Source: a virus (lineage: Duplodnaviria > Heunggongvirae > Uroviricota > Caudoviricetes). Taken from it: DNA of 9,239 bases. Positions 193-9,239 of the stretch are shown here, one piece after another; the stretch's first letter is position 1, and each line of letters starts with the position of its first letter. The position numbers were made by a program, and so were the translations under genes. The notes beneath the pieces are model-generated. The model saw nothing but the letters and a program-made list of their open reading frames with translations. It was not told where the DNA came from and made no database searches. The stretch lies in the IMG/VR virus record IMGVR_UViG_2657245112_000034. One strand, given 5' to 3'.

Positions 193-264
193 TGGAGCAC
201 CTGTGTTGTTCTGAGGTGAGCATATCACCTCTGTTCAGGTGGCCAAATTCAGTAAACCACTTCA
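1..264 (-). mobile_element. Partial IS3-family insertion sequence (IS911-like), left end only; element continues beyond window start
   Basis: Minus-strand translation of 1..192 is a recognisable IS3-family OrfA N-terminus; terminal sequence on minus strand begins TGAAGTGG (forward ccacttca at 257-264, repeated at 265-272), consistent with IS3-family TG...CA ends. Exact end (264 vs 272) uncertain. Confidence 0.7.
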
Positions 265-292
265 CCACTTCAGAGCAGACGAGACAAAAAGA

Positions 293-865
293 ATGGTTGA
301 CGCATCAGCTCAACCCCATATAGTTGTAACACTTGAGCCAAACCCTTGGGCCGCTTTTTACTTTGATATTAACATTGCTAATACAGGGAACGCACCTGCC
401 TATAATGTTGAGGTTGTGTTTGATCCTCCACTAGTAAATGCGGAGCATAGAGAAAAAAGTGAGATTCCGTTTAGTAAGGTAAGCGTGTTAAAAAATGGGC
501 AATCACTTACCAGCAATCTCTGTAAGTATGAACAAATCAAAGATCAAATTTATAATATTAATATAAGCTGGGCAAGCAAACCTAAATCAAACGATAGAGA
601 AACAAATGAATATGTGTATGACATGGCGACATTTGAAGGAATAAGTTATCTAGGAGCGAGAAGCCCATTGACGCAAATTGCAGAACAAATTAAAGGTATA
701 AGAGAGGATTGGAAACCTATTGCACAAGGAGCTAAAAAAGTAAAAGCAGACGTATATACTTCAAGCGATAGAAACGAAGAACGCACGTATCTGCAAGAGC
801 AACACGATTTGGCAATAAAAAGGAGAGATGAGAAAAGAGAAAAAAGATTAGAGTCTGGTGAATAA
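293..865 (+). CDS. Hypothetical protein, 190 aa from ATG 293 (frame open from GTG 239 inside the IS end); possibly 5'-truncated by the IS insertion
   Basis: ORF track 239..865; first ATG at 293 with weak purine-rich upstream (gacgagacaaaaaga). AT-rich codon usage; charged C-terminal tail RRDEKREKRLESGE. No family recognised. Confidence 0.5.
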   Translation: MVDASAQPHIVVTLEPNPWAAFYFDINIANTGNAPAYNVEVVFDPPLVNAEHREKSEIPFSKVSVLKNGQSLTSNLCKYEQIKDQIYNINISWASKPKSNDRETNEYVYDMATFEGISYLGARSPLTQIAEQIKGIREDWKPIAQGAKKVKADVYTSSDRNEERTYLQEQHDLAIKRRDEKREKRLESGE

Positions 866-913: not shown

Positions 914-1738
914 TTAATCACTTATTTTTGACAACAGATAATTACTGAACGCACTGCAAGTGACTAACATAAATTTAGCTTCAGCTAAGGTAGGATTTAC
1001 ATCTTCTTCTGTTAGCGCATGACGTATTCCACCCTGATCACTTGTATAACCATAGAGCTGACTAAAAGCGCCTTTCATTGCAGAGTGTATATATCCTTTT
1101 TCCTCTATAGCTTTAAGACAAGCCCCCAAGGTTCCTTTATCATTGCCCGTGATTTTCCTGCATAAAGATTCAATTGCAGAGATAGACTCTTTAATCGAGT
1201 TTCTGTAGTCTGGCTGCTCTCTATCCGTCATTAGTTGTAACGCCCTTTCGAAATGGCTACGCGATGAATCAGTGCCATTATCAACTGCGTTCTGAACACT
1301 TTCAATTTCGTTATCATTTGAAATAGGAGTAATACAACCATTTATTATGGTATAACCAACGCCATGCTTTTTAAAGATGGAATTGAGATGCTTCGATAGA
1401 TTAATATATGAATTAGTTCTCTCAATGATGAACTCAATTAAATCATATACCAAATACCATGCTTCCCCATATATATAATCTCGGATAGCAGTCAGCAACG
1501 TCTTATCACTTTTGTATCCACTTTCATAACGAGGAATATTATCCGCAGGTTGATTTAGATAATATATCCACACAGACTGCGCACATTTTGTTGCTGTAGC
1601 AGTTTGACGATTGTTAGTCCAAAGGAAAAGATATAAGCAATTCCACAATGCCATGCGTGTATCAGAATTAAGATCATTCAGCTGGACATGCTCTCTAACG
1701 TCAACATGACCATACCTCACAGAAAATGGCTTTATCAT
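914..1738 (-). CDS. Hypothetical protein, 274 aa, AT-rich; function unknown
   Basis: Long uninterrupted ORF; ATG at 1738 preceded by purine-rich caggcaggggaaga; W/Y-rich N-terminal half and helix-like C-terminal half. No catalytic motif confidently recognised by eye. Confidence 0.65.
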   Translation of the reverse strand: MIKPFSVRYGHVDVREHVQLNDLNSDTRMALWNCLYLFLWTNNRQTATATKCAQSVWIYYLNQPADNIPRYESGYKSDKTLLTAIRDYIYGEAWYLVYDLIEFIIERTNSYINLSKHLNSIFKKHGVGYTIINGCITPISNDNEIESVQNAVDNGTDSSRSHFERALQLMTDREQPDYRNSIKESISAIESLCRKITGNDKGTLGACLKAIEEKGYIHSAMKGAFSQLYGYTSDQGGIRHALTEEDVNPTLAEAKFMLVTCSAFSNYLLSKISD

Positions 1739-4991: not shown

Positions 4992-5315
4992 TCAGTGTAA
5001 AACCGGCTTTTTGATGTGACGGACGCATAACTCATCCATTACGGCTATTCCGAGCTGGGAGAGTGCGGGACAGGACATTAGAGGGCCGTATTCCATCAGG
5101 TCTGAAAGCAGGGCGCAGGCGATTTCCATGCCTTTTGTTTGCCCGTGCTGTCGCAGATAAAATCCTTCAAGCTCACGGGCAATAGCGGTTTCAATTTCAT
5201 CCAGAGTGAGCTGCAGATGGCGGTTTTGCTGATAGCAGGCACTCAACCAGGCGCAGGCTACCGCGCGGCGATACAACGCTACCCGAAGTGAAAGGGAAAG
5301 AGTGCGTGATTTCAT
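4992..5315 (-). CDS. Hypothetical early-left-operon protein, 107 aa
   Basis: ATG at 5315 with RBS GGAGGTGGTG; start overlaps the upstream gene's stop in ATGA (5312-5315); ends 14 nt before the alpha start. No family recognised. Confidence 0.6.
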
Positions 5316-5536
5316 TGCACCACCTCCATGTTCATGAGGTCATCCTGGCAACGCTGTACCACGCCATCAAGCTGCTCTGTCATCAGATAAATCAGGGAAA
5401 CCAGTTGTTCACATTGAGCACTGGCAGGTTTTTCGTAGCAATCCTGAAGAACAGCCATTCCAGTGACAAACTCTCCCACGTTACGAAGATGCTTCAGGCG
5501 GAGAATATCGTCATAAGAGATTGCGGCGTGATTCAT
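5312..5536 (-). CDS. Small protein, 74 aa, at the position of P4 epsilon (function unverified)
   Basis: ATG at 5536 (forward cat 5534-5536) with strong RBS GGGAGGTGA; the ORF-track extension to 5575 lacks an RBS. Start overlaps the upstream ORF stop as TAATG. Confidence 0.55.
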
Positions 5537-5727
5537 TAGATCACCTCCCGGACAGGCAGGCGAGCAGCAAGACAAAGCACATACTCATGGACCAGTGAAA
5601 GACGTGCATGATGCTCATTGCTGGCGATGATACGCAGCATACTGATACGTGGTTTACGTTCTGCACGACGAACGGCGGCAAAAACAAATATAAATTGAGG
5701 ATGTGACGGGGCGAGGATCGTAGCCAT
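5536..5727 (-). CDS. Small protein, 63 aa ([63 protein letters not shown]), kil-like position downstream of the immunity RNA region
   Basis: ATG at 5727 (forward cat 5725-5727) preceded by GGAGGT at 7-nt spacing; it is the 3' end of the 234-aa ORF-track frame 5536..6240, the rest of which overlaps RNA elements and vis. Confidence 0.35.
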
Positions 5728-5764
5728 AAGGGCAACCTCCAATAAGTAGCGGTAAATGCCACCA

Positions 5765-5781
5765 CCGGAGTTCCTACGCTC
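5765..5781 (-). promoter_or_regulatory. seqC-like RNA target element (transcript GAGCGUAGGAACUCCGG)
   Basis: Forward gttcctacgc at 5770-5779 is a 10/10 direct repeat of 5977-5986; it sits in the loop of a stem accacc (5761-5766) / ggtggt (5785-5790). Confidence 0.45.
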
Positions 5782-5789
5782 ATGGGTGG

Positions 5790-5875
5790 TGACCCGAACG
5801 GGGGTAGGAATACCGGCCTTATTGGAAACCGGCCAGCCCGAAGGCTGCCCCGCCCGGACCACCATTATCTGAAAG
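5790..5875 (-). ncRNA. Candidate P4 CI-like immunity RNA (boundaries approximate)
   Basis: No credible ORF; holds the single complementary element (transcript CCGGUAUUCCUACCCCCG, forward gtaggaa 5805-5811) and a CAGCC-UUCG-GGCUG tetraloop hairpin (forward 5834-5847). Matches P4 seqA/seqB/seqC logic. Confidence 0.4.
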
Positions 5876-5930
5876 GGGCTAAGGTATAAGCACCGCAGCC
5901 CGAAAAATGGGTGTGCCTGAGCAACGACGT

Positions 5931-5953
5931 AAAAAAAGACGCACGGCGCGTCT
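5931..5953 (-). terminator. Intrinsic terminator / attenuator in the leader between the seqA-like element and the RNA
   Basis: Transcript AGACGC-GCCGU-GCGUCU followed by seven U (forward A-tract 5931-5937), read directly from the minus strand. Confidence 0.45.
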
Positions 5954-5971
5954 GGTGTCGCCAATAAGTAA

Positions 5972-5990
5972 CTCGGGTTCCTACGCCCGG
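5972..5990 (-). promoter_or_regulatory. seqA-like RNA target element (transcript GGGCGUAGGAACCCGAG)
   Basis: Forward gttcctacgc at 5977-5986; complementary to the UUCCUAC-CCC element at 5801-5816 (about 10 of 11 positions can pair). Confidence 0.45.
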
Positions 5991-6015
5991 CAGCCGATTT
6001 TGCGGCAGCGGGAAA

Positions 6016-6045
6016 ACTATACCTGGAAAAGATATCAGGACGCAA
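6016..6045 (-). promoter_or_regulatory. Sigma70-type promoter candidate (P_LE-like) for the immunity / early-left transcript
   Basis: Minus strand TTGCGT (forward 6040-6045), 18-nt spacer, TATAGT (forward 6016-6021), just downstream of the vis stop; predicted start near 6008. Confidence 0.4.
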
Positions 6046-6080
6046 GCCAGAAAAAAGAAGATGAGACTGCAAAGCAAGTT

Positions 6081-6341
6081 TCACGCATGGCCTCCTTGCT
6101 CGCGGGCAGCAATTCGCGCCGCCATCCATGCACTGACCTCCGACTGTACCCAGGCCACATTTTTTCCACCCAGGGATATCTGCTGCGGGAAGGCATCGCG
6201 GCTGATAAGGTCGTAGATGGTTGAACGGGATAGCCCGCAAAGGTGCATCACTTCAGGTAATCGTATGAAGCGCTCCTGCTGAGCCGGAACCGGGAGCACC
6301 GGAGCAGCTGGTGCCGGGGTGGAAACGGAAATACTATTCAT
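6081..6341 (-). CDS. vis: AlpA/Vis-family helix-turn-helix regulator / excisionase-like protein, 86 aa
   Basis: [50 protein letters not shown] is a typical AlpA-family HTH signature; ATG at 6341 with RBS GAGAGGTAG; Pro/Ala-rich N-terminal tail. Confidence 0.85.
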
Positions 6342-6830
6342 CTGGCTACCTCTCTAATATGTTTACAACAGTCCGGGCAATTCCATGCGGATTCAGGTAG
6401 CTCCTTATTATGTTTATATAAGCGGCTCGCGCATGCTTTATTTATTTTGTGTGAAATGTTGATTTCTCAAAAAATAAAACAGCTAAAAACCGTATGAAAC
6501 GAACAAAAACAAACAATTCCTTTATGGAATATAATAAGGAGCATCAATAATAAAAAAGTCTATTACACTAGGCAGGATCACAGCTCAAATCTGAACCAGC
6601 CCATATCATTCAGGGCGTTACATCATAAGCACTAAGACAACACCTGATTAATAAAAGAGCCAAAACGGCCAAAAATAAACAGCTCACCATATGTATCAAT
6701 AAATCCGATGATTAAAGAAATTAAATTACCATCTTACTTCCGCATGTATCCGGATGTGTTTAATGAACATCAGACAAATTCATTTTTATGAATATTTTCC
6801 TGAAATGCAACTGAGTGCAGGGAGGTTGAA

Positions 6831-6886: not shown

Positions 6887-7100
6887 TGAATACTGGTGAA
6901 TACTGGTGAATATTGGTGAGGAGAAAAGATCCAGTAATAAACTGAAATAAATATCGCGACTTATATGAAAAAGAAATATATGTTTAATTTTATCTCTGTG
7001 AACAGTCATGAACAGTAGATGATCACTTTAATTAAAACACTACACCACTTAACCACATGTATTTACTATATTTTTATTGAAGTGAACAGTAGTGAATAGT
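6887..7100 (+). repeat. ori-like cluster of alpha-iteron-like octamers, including three tandem 10-bp units
   Basis: TGAATACTGG x2 and TGAATATTGG (6887-6916) give GGTGAATA at 6895 and 6905; GTGAACA at 6998 and 7082, ATGAACA at 7008, GTGAATA at 7092; all same orientation, paired at 10-bp spacing; about 4.5 kb from the crr-like patch. Confidence 0.45.
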
Positions 7101-7165
7101 ATGTATTAAAGGAAGCGTGTAGATCAGACATGACACCTTTCTCTGGCTAGCCAGAACAAGGTCAT

Positions 7166-7183
7166 TGTTCAGTCACTGACACA
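7166..7183 (+). promoter_or_regulatory. P_sid-like late promoter activator site, TGT-N12-ACA dyad
   Basis: TGTTCAGTCACTGACACA has an internal palindrome CAGTcACTG; centre is about 81 bp upstream of the sid-like ATG; weak -10-like CACAAT at 7218-7223 and no clear -35, as expected for Ogr/Delta-dependent P2/P4 late promoters. Confidence 0.4.
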
Positions 7184-7255
7184 ATCCTCCTCGGTAGTGC
7201 GCTTGTATGGACCCCGGCACAATTGACACAACAACAAAACACTACCGGAGCAGTC

Positions 7256-8008
7256 ATGACTACTGTTAACCAGATCCCTGATGCAAACATTACACCCTCC
7301 CTCCCACCGAAAATTCGCGAAGCGGTGGATAAAGTTAAGGCAGCAAAAGCTGTCTGGCAGGAAGAACGACGAAAACAAACTGAAGCTGCTGCAATGATTG
7401 AAACTATCCGTAAACGTCAGGAAGATACAAAAACGGAAACGCAGGCGCTTAATGATGAATGGCGAAACCTGTTTCGTGAGAATCAGGGAAATATGACGCC
7501 ACGCATGAAAAAACTGCGGGCAGAAATCGCCCTCGGACGCGAAACACTGGATGAGTTCGAAGATTTGCTGGCAGCTCAGGCGGCAGAAAATGAATTCCTG
7601 CCCTGGAAAACTGCGGATGCTGCAAACCACTACATCAGCGAACATAATCGCCTGATTGAAACTCATGCAGTGTGGCTCTGGAATGAGTTTATGAAGGAAC
7701 ACGGTCAGAAACTTATTCAGATCCTTGGACTGCTGAAAATGACTCTGGGCCGAAGCGCTTCTGCTGTTATCGGTGTAGTTCATACCGTAAACGACCCCGA
7801 AAGTGTGCTGAAGCAATTTATCAGCGAGCAACTCACCACTCCGGCACTGTCCTGTAACGTATCTTCAACCGATGATATTACCCTGCCGGGGATCAGCATT
7901 TATGCGGACGATAAAGCCATCCAGGATGCCAGACAATCCCCCAGCCCTGCAGCGCGTTCACGGATGCTTAAACAGCGTGACATGGTTAAAGGGGGCGAGA
8001 AGAAATGA
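7256..8008 (+). CDS. Sid-like protein by position (alpha-helical, coiled-coil-rich), 250 aa
   Basis: ATG at 7256 with GGAG 5 nt upstream (ORF track starts at TTG 7223); first gene after the late promoter; heptad-like charged helices (WQEERRKQTEAAAMIETIRKRQEDTKTE...). Assignment is by synteny, not recognised sequence. Confidence 0.6.
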   Translation: MTTVNQIPDANITPSLPPKIREAVDKVKAAKAVWQEERRKQTEAAAMIETIRKRQEDTKTETQALNDEWRNLFRENQGNMTPRMKKLRAEIALGRETLDEFEDLLAAQAAENEFLPWKTADAANHYISEHNRLIETHAVWLWNEFMKEHGQKLIQILGLLKMTLGRSASAVIGVVHTVNDPESVLKQFISEQLTTPALSCNVSSTDDITLPGISIYADDKAIQDARQSPSPAARSRMLKQRDMVKGGEKK

Positions 8009-8559
8009 ATGCCGGAACCATTACTCAGGAAGCACTCAACGATTACCGCTCGGCGATAAAAAGCTGGCTGACACTACGTAATACGCAAAGTACCTACCAG
8101 CTTCGTCTGGCGGCTCTGCTGGATACTGAAGAAAAACCGGCAGCATATGCCAGCCAGCTTGAGGATCTTCGTGAGCGTCTTGCAGTCCTCGAATGGCAGA
8201 TTAACTGTGCTGCACGGGATGGTCTTTATGCTCATCAGATTGTGCTGGAGAGTTGTGTTACAAGCGCAACGGAAAACTTCATGAGCGAGCATGGTGATGC
8301 ACTCACTGACGCTCTGGCTCCTTTTCTTTGCGCTCCATACGGGCTTGAGGCGGCAATGAAAATATTACGAACCGCTGTAGCCCGACAAACGGAAATGCGT
8401 ACTCCGGTAATTTCAGCAGCATATAAGAGCATTATCGACGAAACCGGATTAACGGTGGATGCATCAATGCGCGCTGATGCTTCAGCCAGTTTCACCCCGG
8501 CACAACATAAAGTTTTCCTGGCCCGCCTTAACCGACTTAATGAAAAAGGAGTGTGCTGA
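8005..8559 (+). CDS. psu: Psu-like protein (polarity suppression / capsid decoration), 184 aa
   Basis: Start overlaps the sid-like stop in ATGA (8005-8008); segments SWLTLRN, LEWQINCAA, DALAPFL and FTPAQ agree with my recollection of P4 Psu; predicted all-helical. Confidence 0.6.
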   Translation: MNAGTITQEALNDYRSAIKSWLTLRNTQSTYQLRLAALLDTEEKPAAYASQLEDLRERLAVLEWQINCAARDGLYAHQIVLESCVTSATENFMSEHGDALTDALAPFLCAPYGLEAAMKILRTAVARQTEMRTPVISAAYKSIIDETGLTVDASMRADASASFTPAQHKVFLARLNRLNEKGVC

Positions 8560-8560
8560 T

Positions 8561-8833
8561 ATGGCCCTGAAGTGTCCTGAATGTGGCGCGGTCGCTCACG
8601 CCAGAACCAGCGCCTATGAAGCTCCGTCGGTTAAACGCTCATGGTATCAGTGCCAGAATCTGGAATGTTCCTGCACATTTACCGCACTGGAAAGCGTGGA
8701 TACGATAATTATGAAGCCTCGGTGCAATGAACAGGAATCAGACAAAGCAAAAATACCGGAAAAACAACAGCAAACTCTCAATCGCTATGGCTCCGCGTCA
8801 AAGCTGTCAAACCGTCAGCAAATTCCTGTCTGA
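8561..8833 (+). CDS. Ogr/Delta-family zinc-finger late transcription activator, single domain, 90 aa
   Basis: ATG at 8561 with AAGGAG upstream (the ORF-track start at 8459 overlaps psu and is rejected); CPECGAVAHARTS...QCQNLECSCTF matches the P2 Ogr Cys4 signature. Confidence 0.85.
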   Translation: MALKCPECGAVAHARTSAYEAPSVKRSWYQCQNLECSCTFTALESVDTIIMKPRCNEQESDKAKIPEKQQQTLNRYGSASKLSNRQQIPV

Positions 8834-8854
8834 TTAGCAAAATACGACCACGAA

Positions 8855-8880
8855 GTCCCGGTCCAGTACCGGGATTTTTT
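8855..8880 (+). terminator. Rho-independent terminator of the late operon
   Basis: gtcccgg (8855-8861), loop tccagta, ccgggat (8869-8875, one G-U pair), then T6 at 8875-8880, about 20 nt after the stop. Confidence 0.7.
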
Positions 8881-8924
8881 ACGCCTTTTTCCTGGCTGGC
8901 CTGAGAGCGTATGAGTGCATATCT

Positions 8925-8959
8925 ATGGCGCATGAAAACGCATGAGTCTCATGCGCCAT
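8925..8959. repeat. Perfect 11-bp inverted repeat atggcgcatga / tcatgcgccat with 13-nt spacer, followed by TTTT
   Basis: Read directly; the spacer also carries gcatgaaaac, which recurs at 9011-9020. Confidence 0.3.
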
Positions 8960-9036
8960 TTTTGACGCGAAAGCCCTTGTGTGGTGGCTTCTGAGACGAT
9001 TTACGGGGTGCATGAAAACCAGTCTGTTAAGCGAAG

Positions 9037-9062
9037 CGGGCAGGCGGGCGGGGCATTGCGCG
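9037..9062. other. Degenerate cos-like G-rich motif (very tentative)
   Basis: cgggcaggcgggcggggcattgcgcg loosely resembles the P2/P4 cohesive-end sequence GGCGAGGCGGGGAAAGCAC as I recall it, but only with indels. Confidence 0.15.
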
Positions 9063-9142
9063 CAGGAATGTGTATACCGTTTTAGTAATGATCGCTGACA
9101 TCTCACTTTTAAGTAAGCGACTCGTCAGAACCGTATTGATAT

Positions 9143-9239
9143 TTACTGAGAGCTCAGATCAACTTTCCAGGGCAACAGATCGCGTACCCGGTTTGCCGGC
9201 CAGTCCTGGATATGTTCAATGACGTAACGCAGCCACTTT
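9143..9239 (-). CDS. 3' end of a minus-strand gene entering from the right edge (C-terminus ...KWLRYVIEHIQDWPANRVRDLLPWKVDLSSQ); identity unknown
   Basis: Hand translation of the minus strand gives an open frame from the window edge to TAA (forward tta 9143-9145); absent from the ORF track because it is truncated. Lies just past the cos-like region where P4-like elements carry variable cargo. Confidence 0.4.
   Translation of the reverse strand, partial: KWLRYVIEHIQDWPANRVRDLLPWKVDLSSQ

What the first reader, a model, noticed from the sequence alone, without database searches (positions are those of the whole stretch)
7256..8833. Late operon order is Sid-like, Psu-like, then a single-domain Ogr-type activator
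As I recall it, P4 has sid-delta-psu with a two-domain Delta of about 166 aa. Here the zinc-finger activator is last and only 90 aa (one Cys4 unit, closer to P2 Ogr), and the sid-like and psu-like genes are coupled by ATGA. This points to a P4 relative with a rearranged late operon; the sid-like and psu-like calls rest on position and remembered sequence features only.
Basis: partly seen in the sequence, partly recalled or inferred. Interest (0 to 1): 0.4.

Follow-up and report, generated by a model that had tools for sequence, protein, structure and literature searches.

The report
P4-like satellite late operon, swapped order
This is the intact late operon (capsid-size protein Sid, Rho inhibitor and capsid decorator Psu, zinc-finger activator Delta) of a P4-like phage satellite in E. 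coli, and its order, with the activator last and only one zinc finger, is a common and already published variant.

Summary
Window 7256-8833 holds three tightly packed + strand genes. The first is a 250-aa Sid orthologue: a profile of it and seven relatives hits the solved P4 Sid chain at E 2.9e-19 over nearly its full length. The second is a 184-aa Psu (Pfam PF07455, 123 bits). The third is a 90-aa one-finger Ogr/Delta activator with the motif CX2CX22CX4C. The sid stop and psu start overlap in ATGA, and the delta ATG begins 1 nt after the psu stop.

The P4 record confirms sid-delta-psu with a 166-aa, two-finger Delta. Upstream of sid lie two TGT-N12-ACA dyads with the same geometry as at P4 Psid: 38 bp apart, with the second 52 nt before the sid ATG. 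This geometry is kept in 80 of 85 surveyed relatives. A terminator hairpin and a cos-like site follow delta.

The arrangement is not new. Moura de Sousa & Rocha (PMC8628076) report the psu/delta swap in 20% of complete P4-like elements. Short Delta homologues are noted in PMC11718236. The same layout sits in the O157:H7 element named CP-933I in one hit's source annotation. Near-identical whole operons occur in 233 of 5426 complete E. coli genomes.

In my sample the swap always goes with a one-finger Delta, but one-finger Deltas also occur in the P4 order.

Verdict: the finding is real, correctly read and already known, so interest is low.

The parts
7136..7162 (+). Conserved box and near-palindrome (ACCTTTCTCTGGCT/AGCCAGAACAAGGT) just upstream of the first activator dyad. 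It aligns with CCTTTTCCTGGCTTGCC upstream of P4 Psid. Its role is unknown.
   Evidence: Alignment with P4 Psid; inverted repeat I7; the motif recurs at the same place in relatives.
7166..7183 (+). Distal Ogr/Delta operator of the Psid-like promoter, TGT-N12-ACA (TGTTCAGTCACTGACACA). By analogy with P4 it would be centred near -55, which puts the transcription start near 7229-7230.
   Evidence: The P4 counterpart is at 9493-9510. The consensus is quoted in PMC3931495. The -55 position is from my own knowledge of Julien & Calendar 1995.
7204..7221 (+). Proximal TGT-N12-ACA dyad (TGTATGGACCCCGGCACA), 38 bp from the first and 52 nt before the sid ATG. Both distances are identical in P4 (9531-9548).
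   Evidence: A spacing of 38-39 bp and a distance of 48-54 nt to the ATG are kept in 80 of 85 loci, although the N12 sequences differ.
7256..8008 (+). sid-like gene, 250 aa. It is the predicted external scaffold that redirects the helper capsid protein into small capsids.
   Evidence: phrog_6165 at 9.6e-94, the same PHROG as P4 Sid. PDB 7jw1_E Sid at E 2.9e-6 with the single sequence and 2.9e-19 with a profile. BLASTP against P4 Sid gives 23% over 212 aa.
8005..8559 (+). psu gene, 184 aa. It is the predicted capsid decoration protein and Rho inhibitor. Its start overlaps the sid stop in ATGA.
   Evidence: PF07455 at 1e-35 and 123 bits; phrog_6366 at 6e-72; PDB 3rx6 at 2.2e-11; 28% identity to P4 Psu. 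The helix alpha7 motif FTPAQ is conserved. The ATGA overlap is conserved in relatives.
8561..8833 (+). delta gene, 90 aa. It is a single-finger Ogr/Delta late activator with Cys at 5, 8, 31 and 36 (CX2CX22CX4C) and a clade-specific C-terminal tail.
   Evidence: PF04606 at 7e-17 and 61.5 bits, one domain. It matches both halves of P4 Delta. It is 49% identical to P2 Ogr by tblastn. Alignment and identities.
8852..8880 (+). Intrinsic terminator of the operon: an 11-bp hairpin at 8852-8878 running into a T6 tract at 8875-8880.
   Evidence: RNA fold of -15.5 kcal/mol, z -3.4; sequence.
9030..9068 (.). cos-like GC-rich site (AAGCGAAGCGGGCAGGCGGGCGGGGCATTGCGCGCA) at the position of P4 cos, about 200 bp after the last late gene. 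This is inferred and not proven.
   Evidence: Alignment with the P4 end junction. The P4 19-mer itself is not matched within 6 mismatches.

Best explanation
The region is the late (Psid-type) operon of an integrated P4-like phage satellite of E. coli. It has the gene order sid-psu-delta instead of P4's sid-delta-psu.

Inferred mechanism, by homology with P4 and P2:
1. When a P2-like helper is active, the helper's Ogr or the satellite's own Delta binds the two TGT-N12-ACA dyads at 7166-7183 and 7204-7221.
2. Binding recruits RNA polymerase to start transcription near 7230.
3. One mRNA then yields three products. Sid cages helper capsid protein into small shells that fit the satellite genome. 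Psu decorates those shells and blocks the Rho termination factor. Delta switches on helper late genes and feeds back on its own promoter.
4. The three genes are translationally coupled (ATGA overlap, then a 1-nt gap).
5. Transcription stops at the hairpin at 8852-8880, and the cos-like packaging site follows.

The one-finger Delta presumably acts as a non-covalent dimer, as Ogr does, whereas P4 Delta carries both fingers in one chain.

What is shown: gene identities, gene order, promoter architecture and its conservation, and the terminator.

What is inferred: all activities of the proteins, the transcription start and cos function.
For: Gene identities are supported.

The P4 order and Delta size are confirmed from the record.

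The promoter has the same geometry as P4. That geometry is conserved in 80 of 85 loci across three layouts and several genera.

The coupling junctions are conserved.

The terminator folds well, and a cos-like site is present.

The rest of the window is P4-like:
- alpha primase-helicase, DUF5375 (orf106) and AlpA;
- CI/C4 immunity RNA and isrK;
- TGAACAG ori repeats.

The published survey states that the psu/delta swap is the commonest deviation, at 20% of the total for complete elements (PMC8628076). The shorter Delta homologues are noted in PMC11718236.

The same layout occurs in the O157:H7 element named CP-933I in a source annotation, in a retron-carrying element and in Pantoea and Mixta.
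Against: Nothing contradicts the identification.

Several caveats bear on function in this particular copy:
- No homologue of the true helper-derepression protein epsilon (PF25738) was found among the window ORFs I tested.
- The dyad expected at the leftward late promoter is degenerate.
- In the closest sequenced genomes the element is flanked or interrupted by IS elements, and an IS66-like end starts about 45 bp after the cos-like site.
- Four of ten Rho-contacting residues of P4 Psu are changed non-conservatively.
- The cos sequence differs from the P2/P4 19-mer.
Confidence: 0.9

Rival explanations
1. The operon is an inert remnant. The element is a decaying cryptic prophage, and the three genes, though intact, no longer take part in helper exploitation in this host.
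For: In the closest genomes IS600 lies to the left of the element and an IS66-like element abuts the cos-like site. No recognisable epsilon was found. The P_LL dyad is degenerate. The 100% identity among O26 genomes reflects clonality, not selection.
Against: All three ORFs are full length. The promoter dyads, coupling junctions and terminator are intact. The same layout is conserved down to 41-58% protein identity in other genera, so the layout itself is under selection.
Confidence: 0.2
2. The 250-aa protein is a second Psu-type decoration or Rho-binding protein rather than a size-determining scaffold, so the operon is psu-psu-delta.
For: Its C-terminal half passes the Pfam Psu gathering score (30.9 bits against 27.4). 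Some RefSeq records label it 'phage polarity suppression protein'. Sid and Psu are paralogues (PMC8628076).
Against: A profile of the protein and relatives matches Sid over positions 11-236 at E 2.9e-19, but matches Psu only over the C-terminal half at 8e-8. It shares its PHROG with P4 Sid, not P4 Psu. It has Sid's length and first-gene position.
Confidence: 0.05
3. The gene order is a rare or unique recent rearrangement of a P4 genome, which is the novelty implied by the finding.
For: P4 itself and 867 E. coli genomes with near-P4 operons have sid-delta-psu.
Against: The swap is reported in 20% of complete P4-like elements. The whole operon occurs in 233 E. coli genomes, and a window-like delta in 855. 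Every inspected or surveyed case with Psu at least 41% identical to the window's has the same order, including Pantoea and Mixta. The proteins are only 23-28% identical to P4's, so the split is ancient.
Confidence: 0.02

Closest known systems
Satellite phage P4 late operon (Psid: sid, delta, psu; NC_001609)
   Same: Both have the same three gene families. Both have a double TGT-N12-ACA promoter with identical 38-bp spacing and a 52-nt distance to the sid ATG. In both, the sid stop overlaps the next gene in ATGA. In both, a cos site follows the last gene. The neighbours also match: ori repeats, AlpA/orf88, CI RNA, orf106 and alpha.
   Different: The gene order is sid-psu-delta. Delta is 90 aa with one finger instead of 166 aa with two. 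There is no 73-bp gap before the last gene. The proteins are only 23% (Sid), 28% (Psu) and 37-43% (Delta finger) identical to P4's. The cos core differs.
P4-like elements with the psu/delta swap (Moura de Sousa & Rocha 2021, PMC8628076), for example the E. coli O157:H7 element labelled CP-933I in a source annotation
   Same: The layout is exactly the same: about 250-aa Sid, 183-184-aa Psu and 90-aa Delta. The paper gives this swap as 20% of the total for complete elements.
   Different: Nothing essential differs. This copy carries different cargo (AbiJ-NTD4 beyond alpha) and different IS neighbours.
P2 Ogr (72 aa) and other single-finger late activators (186 B; phiR73 Delta, the last from my own knowledge)
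   Same: Delta here has one CX2CX22CX4C finger and is 48-49% identical to Ogr over about 50 residues. The target-type dyads are present.
   Different: Delta here is encoded by a satellite as the last gene of the sid operon, not next to a helper tail operon. It carries an extra 35-aa tail ending in ...RYGSASKLSNRQQIPV, which is conserved in its clade and absent from Ogr.
P4-order elements with a one-finger 78-aa Delta (Atlantibacter MAG and IMG/VR loci L008, L009, L064, L071, L072)
   Same: Delta has one finger (52% identical over the finger) and the same three families are present.
   Different: Delta sits between sid and psu, as in P4. The Psu of these elements is closer to P4 Psu than to the window's.

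Membership tests
Sid (P4 capsid size determination protein) | Sequence homology to P4 Sid over most of its length, stronger than to Psu | tested here: met
   The profile hits 7jw1_E at E 2.9e-19 over positions 11-236, against 8e-8 for Psu over the C-terminal half only. It shares phrog_6165 with P4 Sid.
Sid (P4 capsid size determination protein) | First gene behind a Delta/Ogr-dependent Psid promoter | tested here: met
   The double TGT-N12-ACA has the P4 geometry 52 nt upstream. Promoter activity itself was not tested.
Sid (P4 capsid size determination protein) | Redirects helper gpN assembly to small (T=4) capsids | not testable with these tools
   Needs a helper infection or co-expression experiment.
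Psu (PF07455) | Pfam model matched above the gathering score over its full length | tested here: met
   123.4 bits against a cut-off of 27.4, profile positions 1-181 of 182. PDB 3rx6 at E 2.2e-11.
Psu (PF07455) | Rho-contact residues of P4 Psu (R43, D49, E56, P171, A172, Q173, M175, R179, K180, Q183; PMC11718236) | tested here: inconclusive
   P171, A172 and Q173 are identical. R43K, D49E and K180R are conservative. E56A, M175K, R179A and Q183R are changed.
Psu (PF07455) | Inhibits Rho-dependent termination | not testable with these tools
   Needs a termination reporter or a Rho binding assay.
Ogr/Delta zinc-finger activators (PF04606) | Pfam model above the gathering score, and the Cys motif CX2CX22CX4C | tested here: met
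   61.5 bits against a cut-off of 26.3, one domain. Cys at 5, 8, 31 and 36. The motif is quoted in PMC3931495.
Ogr/Delta zinc-finger activators (PF04606) | Two tandem finger domains, as in P4 Delta | tested here: not met
   It has one finger only. Both halves of P4 Delta align to the same residues 3-70. In architecture it is Ogr-like, not P4-Delta-like.
Ogr/Delta zinc-finger activators (PF04606) | Cognate TGT-N12-ACA operators at late promoters | tested here: met
   Dyads at 7166-7183 and 7204-7221, conserved in position across relatives. Binding was not tested.
P4-like satellite (core set int, psu, delta, sid, alpA, epsilon, alpha; PMC8628076) | Co-located core components | tested here: met
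   psu, delta, sid, alpA (PF05930), alpha (PF03288 and others) and the PF10554 marker are all in the window. A tyrosine recombinase lies about 6 kb beyond delta in O26:H11. Note that PF10554 marks the ORF over the CI RNA, not the true epsilon.
P4-like satellite (core set int, psu, delta, sid, alpA, epsilon, alpha; PMC8628076) | Core gene order as in P4 (int ... psu, delta, sid ... alpha) | tested here: not met
   psu and delta are swapped. This is the variant the same paper reports as 20% of the total, so it does not exclude membership.

The most novel reading that the evidence does not exclude
The sid-psu-delta layout, together with a one-finger Delta carrying a conserved C-terminal tail, may mark an ancient sister lineage of P4-like satellites with a different regulatory logic. 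In that logic Delta, as the distal and translationally coupled gene, is made only after Psu has relieved Rho-dependent polarity in the operon. The diverged Psu (E56A, M175K, R179A, Q183R) and the diverged cos would then reflect adaptation to other helpers or an altered Rho interaction.
Probability: 0.12. Interest if true: 0.35.

Novelty: already known. Interest (0 to 1): 0.1.

Why it matters
It matters little beyond correct annotation. The 250-aa gene is labelled 'hypothetical', 'septation initiation protein' or 'polarity suppression protein' in RefSeq records and can safely be called sid-like.

The survey adds three small, checkable points:
- In this sample the swapped order always comes with a one-finger Delta, while the P4 order occurs with one or two fingers.
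- The double-dyad geometry of Psid is invariant whatever gene follows sid.
- The two-finger P4 Delta is found only in P4's own close relatives.

These points could guide the choice of satellite parts for engineered P4-type delivery particles, but they do not change current understanding.

Tried and rejected
- **DNA and tblastn searches against phage records.** Searches with the region and with the Sid-like protein found nothing. P4 is in that collection, but it is too diverged for those modes. Direct pairwise, HMM and PDB comparisons were needed instead.
- **Species-representative genomes.** The scan returned only 7 loci, so the survey rests mainly on 80 IMG/VR loci chosen by similarity to a Psu alignment. 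It is not an unbiased sample and gives no frequencies.
- **P4 cos 19-mer.** Searching for it in the window with up to 6 mismatches failed. The cos call rests only on the flank alignment.
- **Original papers on Delta and phiR73.** The -55/-18 positions and the phiR73 one-finger Delta are therefore cited from my own knowledge.
- **TGT-N12-ACA at 6997-7014.** I considered it as an operator and rejected it: it is two TGAACAG ori repeats.
- **Dyad at 7118-7135.** It is not conserved among close relatives.
- **Structure prediction.** I did not run it.
- **Repeat search of 6900-9239.** It gave no footprint of the rearrangement.

Full report
**Observation.**
The window carries three consecutive + strand ORFs at the stated coordinates:
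- 7256-8008, 250 aa;
- 8005-8559, 184 aa;
- 8561-8833, 90 aa.

The first two overlap in ATGA (8005-8008). The third starts one base after the second's TGA and has an AGGAG 10 nt upstream. RefSeq calls the same three CDS in E. coli O26:H11 str. 11368. The window is 100% identical to that genome, except that those genomes carry an IS600 at window 393-397.

**Identity of the three proteins.**

The 184-aa protein is a Psu:
- It matches Pfam PF07455 at 123 bits (cut-off 27.4) over the whole model.
- It matches phrog_6366, the PHROG of P4 Psu.
- It hits the solved P4 Psu chain 3rx6 at E 2.2e-11.
- It is 28% identical to P4 Psu.

The 250-aa protein is a Sid orthologue:
- It is only 23% identical to P4 Sid, but its best match in the whole PDB is the Sid chain of the P4 procapsid, 7jw1_E.
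- A profile of it and seven relatives raises that match to E 2.9e-19 over positions 11-236. Psu is matched only over the C-terminal half, at 8e-8.
- It falls in phrog_6165 together with P4 Sid.
- The weak Pfam Psu hit on its C-terminal half reflects the known Sid/Psu paralogy (PMC8628076).

The 90-aa protein is a one-finger Ogr/Delta activator:
- It has one PF04606 domain (61.5 bits).
- It has the exact CX2CX22CX4C motif quoted for Ogr (PMC3931495).
- Both halves of P4 Delta align to the same stretch of it.
- Over the finger it is 48% identical to P2 Ogr, 52% to a 78-aa satellite Delta, 37% to the N half of P4 Delta and 27% to the C half.

**Comparison with P4.**
The P4 record gives sid 9583-10317, delta 10314-10814 (166 aa) and psu 10888-11460.

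**Regulatory anatomy.**

Promoter:
- All four exact TGT-N12-ACA matches in the 9.2-kb window lie within 225 bp upstream of sid.
- One of them (6997) is simply two TGAACAG ori repeats of the P4 type.
- Two (7166-7183 and 7204-7221) reproduce the geometry of P4 Psid exactly. They lie 38 bp apart, with the second 52 nt before the sid ATG.
- Across 85 loci with a sid gene, 80 keep a pair of dyads 38-39 bp apart and 48-54 nt from the ATG. The internal 12 bases vary freely, and the geometry is independent of the gene order that follows.
- From my own knowledge of Julien & Calendar (1995), these correspond to sites centred near -55 and -18. That places the start near 7230 and favours ATG 7256 over the upstream TTG.

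Downstream of delta:
- An 11-bp hairpin running into a T6 tract forms a terminator (-15.5 kcal/mol, z -3.4).
- About 200 bp after the gene there is a GC-rich stretch that aligns with the P4 cohesive-end junction and its flanking boxes. It does not match the P2/P4 19-mer closely.

Surroundings:
The rest of the window completes a P4-like element.
- AlpA, DUF5375 (orf106) and the alpha primase-helicase.
- The CI/C4 immunity RNA and isrK.

**How common is the layout?**
- Moura de Sousa & Rocha state that 77% of complete P4-like elements have the P4 organisation. [quoted passage not shown]
- Gjorgjevikj et al. note Delta homologues shorter than P4 Delta in psu loci (PMC11718236).
- In 5426 complete E. 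coli genomes the whole window operon occurs at 80% or more coverage in 233. A window-like delta occurs in 855. The P4-type operon occurs in 867.
- Two elements that matched only by delta were inspected. One is in an O157:H7 genome, the type a source annotation calls CP-933I. The other carries a retron St85 downstream. Both have sid(about 250 aa)-psu(183 aa)-delta(90 aa).

**Survey of relatives.**
I classified 87 Psu-bearing loci from species-representative genomes and IMG/VR. Three layouts appear.
- (a) sid-psu-delta with a one-finger Delta of 90-93 aa. Every locus whose Psu is at least 41% identical to the window's has this layout, including Pantoea and Mixta.
- (b) sid-delta-psu with the two-finger 166-aa Delta. 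This occurs only in close relatives of P4.
- (c) sid-delta-psu with a one-finger 78-aa Delta. This occurs in an Atlantibacter MAG and four IMG/VR loci.

The swap therefore co-occurs with one finger, but one finger does not imply the swap. The two-finger Delta looks like a specialty of P4 proper. The sample was selected by similarity and gives no frequencies.

The ATGA-type overlap after sid is conserved in layout (a). P4 has it too, where delta follows sid.

**Function of Psu.**
Ten P4 Psu residues are described as contacting Rho (PMC11718236). In the window protein three are identical (P171, A172, Q173). Three are conservatively replaced (R43K, D49E, K180R). Four are changed (E56A, M175K, R179A, Q183R). 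The helix alpha7 motif (F/Y)TPAQ and a basic residue at position 180 are kept in nearly all surveyed Psu proteins. This is compatible with Rho binding but does not prove it.

**Mechanism.**
The mechanism is inferred by homology and was not tested here.
1. Helper Ogr or the satellite's Delta binds the two dyads and activates transcription from about 7230.
2. One mRNA yields Sid, Psu and Delta through coupled translation.
3. Delta feeds back on its own promoter and trans-activates helper late operons.
4. Sid builds the external cage for small capsids.
5. Psu replaces Sid on mature capsids and inhibits Rho.
6. The transcript ends at 8852-8880, before the cos-like site.

The one-finger Delta presumably dimerises on each dyad, as Ogr does.

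**Caveats for this copy.**
- No homologue of the true epsilon (PF25738) was found among the window ORFs tested.
- The dyad at the expected leftward late promoter is degenerate.
- IS elements crowd the element in the genomes that match it.

**Verdict.**
The variant is common, annotated and published, so its novelty is 'already known' and its interest is low.

Noticed in passing
L004:4840-5649, L005:4855-5667, L019:4759-5661 (also L020-L027, L035-L037); absent from the window: In about 15 relatives with the sid-psu-delta layout, a fourth gene directly after delta encodes a third Sid/Psu-family paralogue of 269-374 aa. It matches phrog_6165 at 1e-18 to 1e-21 and is 27% identical to the window's Sid. 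It is rare in E. coli (7 of 5426 genomes at 80% or more coverage). Where it is present, the C-terminal tail of Delta changes from ...GSASKLSNRQQIPV to ...ACxxxDRHAQ. I found no mention of it in the papers I read.
   Followed up: partly
window 5536-6081 (-), 5782-5869 (-), 5932-6009 (-); L002 8171-8584: Pfam PF10554 'Phage_ASH' was used in the literature as the epsilon marker. It matches the old P4 'cI ORF' and the window's 181-aa 'Icd-like' ORF. Both overlap the CI/C4 immunity RNA (RF01695), and the window ORF also overlaps isrK (RF01394). The true P4 epsilon matches PF25738 instead. No window ORF I tested hits PF25738, and the 87-aa ORF at the epsilon position (5315-5575, -) shows no similarity to P4 epsilon.
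   Followed up: partly
window 7140-7152, 8889-8901 and 6041-6053 (-); L002 9461-9473 and 8724-8736 (-): A motif T(T/C)CCTGGCTNGCC recurs in three places. It lies about 26 bp upstream of the first Psid dyad in all lineages. It lies about 55 bp after delta, followed by TGAGAGCGTATGAGTGCAT, in relatives lacking the fourth gene. It also lies on the other strand just upstream of isrK. P4's copy upstream of Psid shares the CTGAG..ATGAGT extension with the window's copy after delta. Its function is unknown.
   Followed up: partly
window 6457-6474: At the place where P4 has the P_LL dyad upstream of orf88/alpA, the window has only a one-mismatch version (TGTTGATTTCTCAAAAAA). The leftward late promoter may be weak or absent.
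   Followed up: partly
window 7118-7135: A third exact TGT-N12-ACA lies 48 bp upstream of the distal Psid dyad. It is present in some close relatives and absent in others, so it is probably chance.
   Followed up: yes
window 239-865 (+) and 914-1738 (-): Beyond the alpha gene lie a 208-aa ORF with no family match and an AbiJ-NTD4 domain protein. This looks like defence-type cargo on the side of the element opposite the usual psu/delta-to-int hotspot. In O26:H11 genomes IS600 is inserted in the 208-aa ORF at window 393-397.
   Followed up: no
window about 9111-9239: The right end of the window is the terminus of an IS66-like ISCro1 element. GTAAGCG begins at about 9111, and the transposase CDS begins at window 9143 on the - strand in NC_013361. 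It is inserted about 45 bp after the cos-like site and so might impair packaging.
   Followed up: partly
window 8775-8830 (delta residues 72-90): The C-terminal tail of Delta (TLNRYGSASKLSNRQQIPV) is conserved from E. coli to Pantoea and Mixta. It is absent from P2 Ogr, P4 Delta and the 78-aa Deltas. Its role is unknown.
   Followed up: no
L008, L009, L064, L071, L072: These are P4-order operons (sid-delta-psu) with a one-finger 78-aa Delta. In L008 and L071/L072 the Sid is highly diverged: it scores only about 71-73 bits against the Sid seeds, whereas L009's scores 307 bits.
   Followed up: partly
window 6985-7017 and 7069-7101: Two blocks of P4-type ori type-1 repeats (TGAACAG) lie between alpA and Psid, at the same place as in the P4 origin.
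   Followed up: yes
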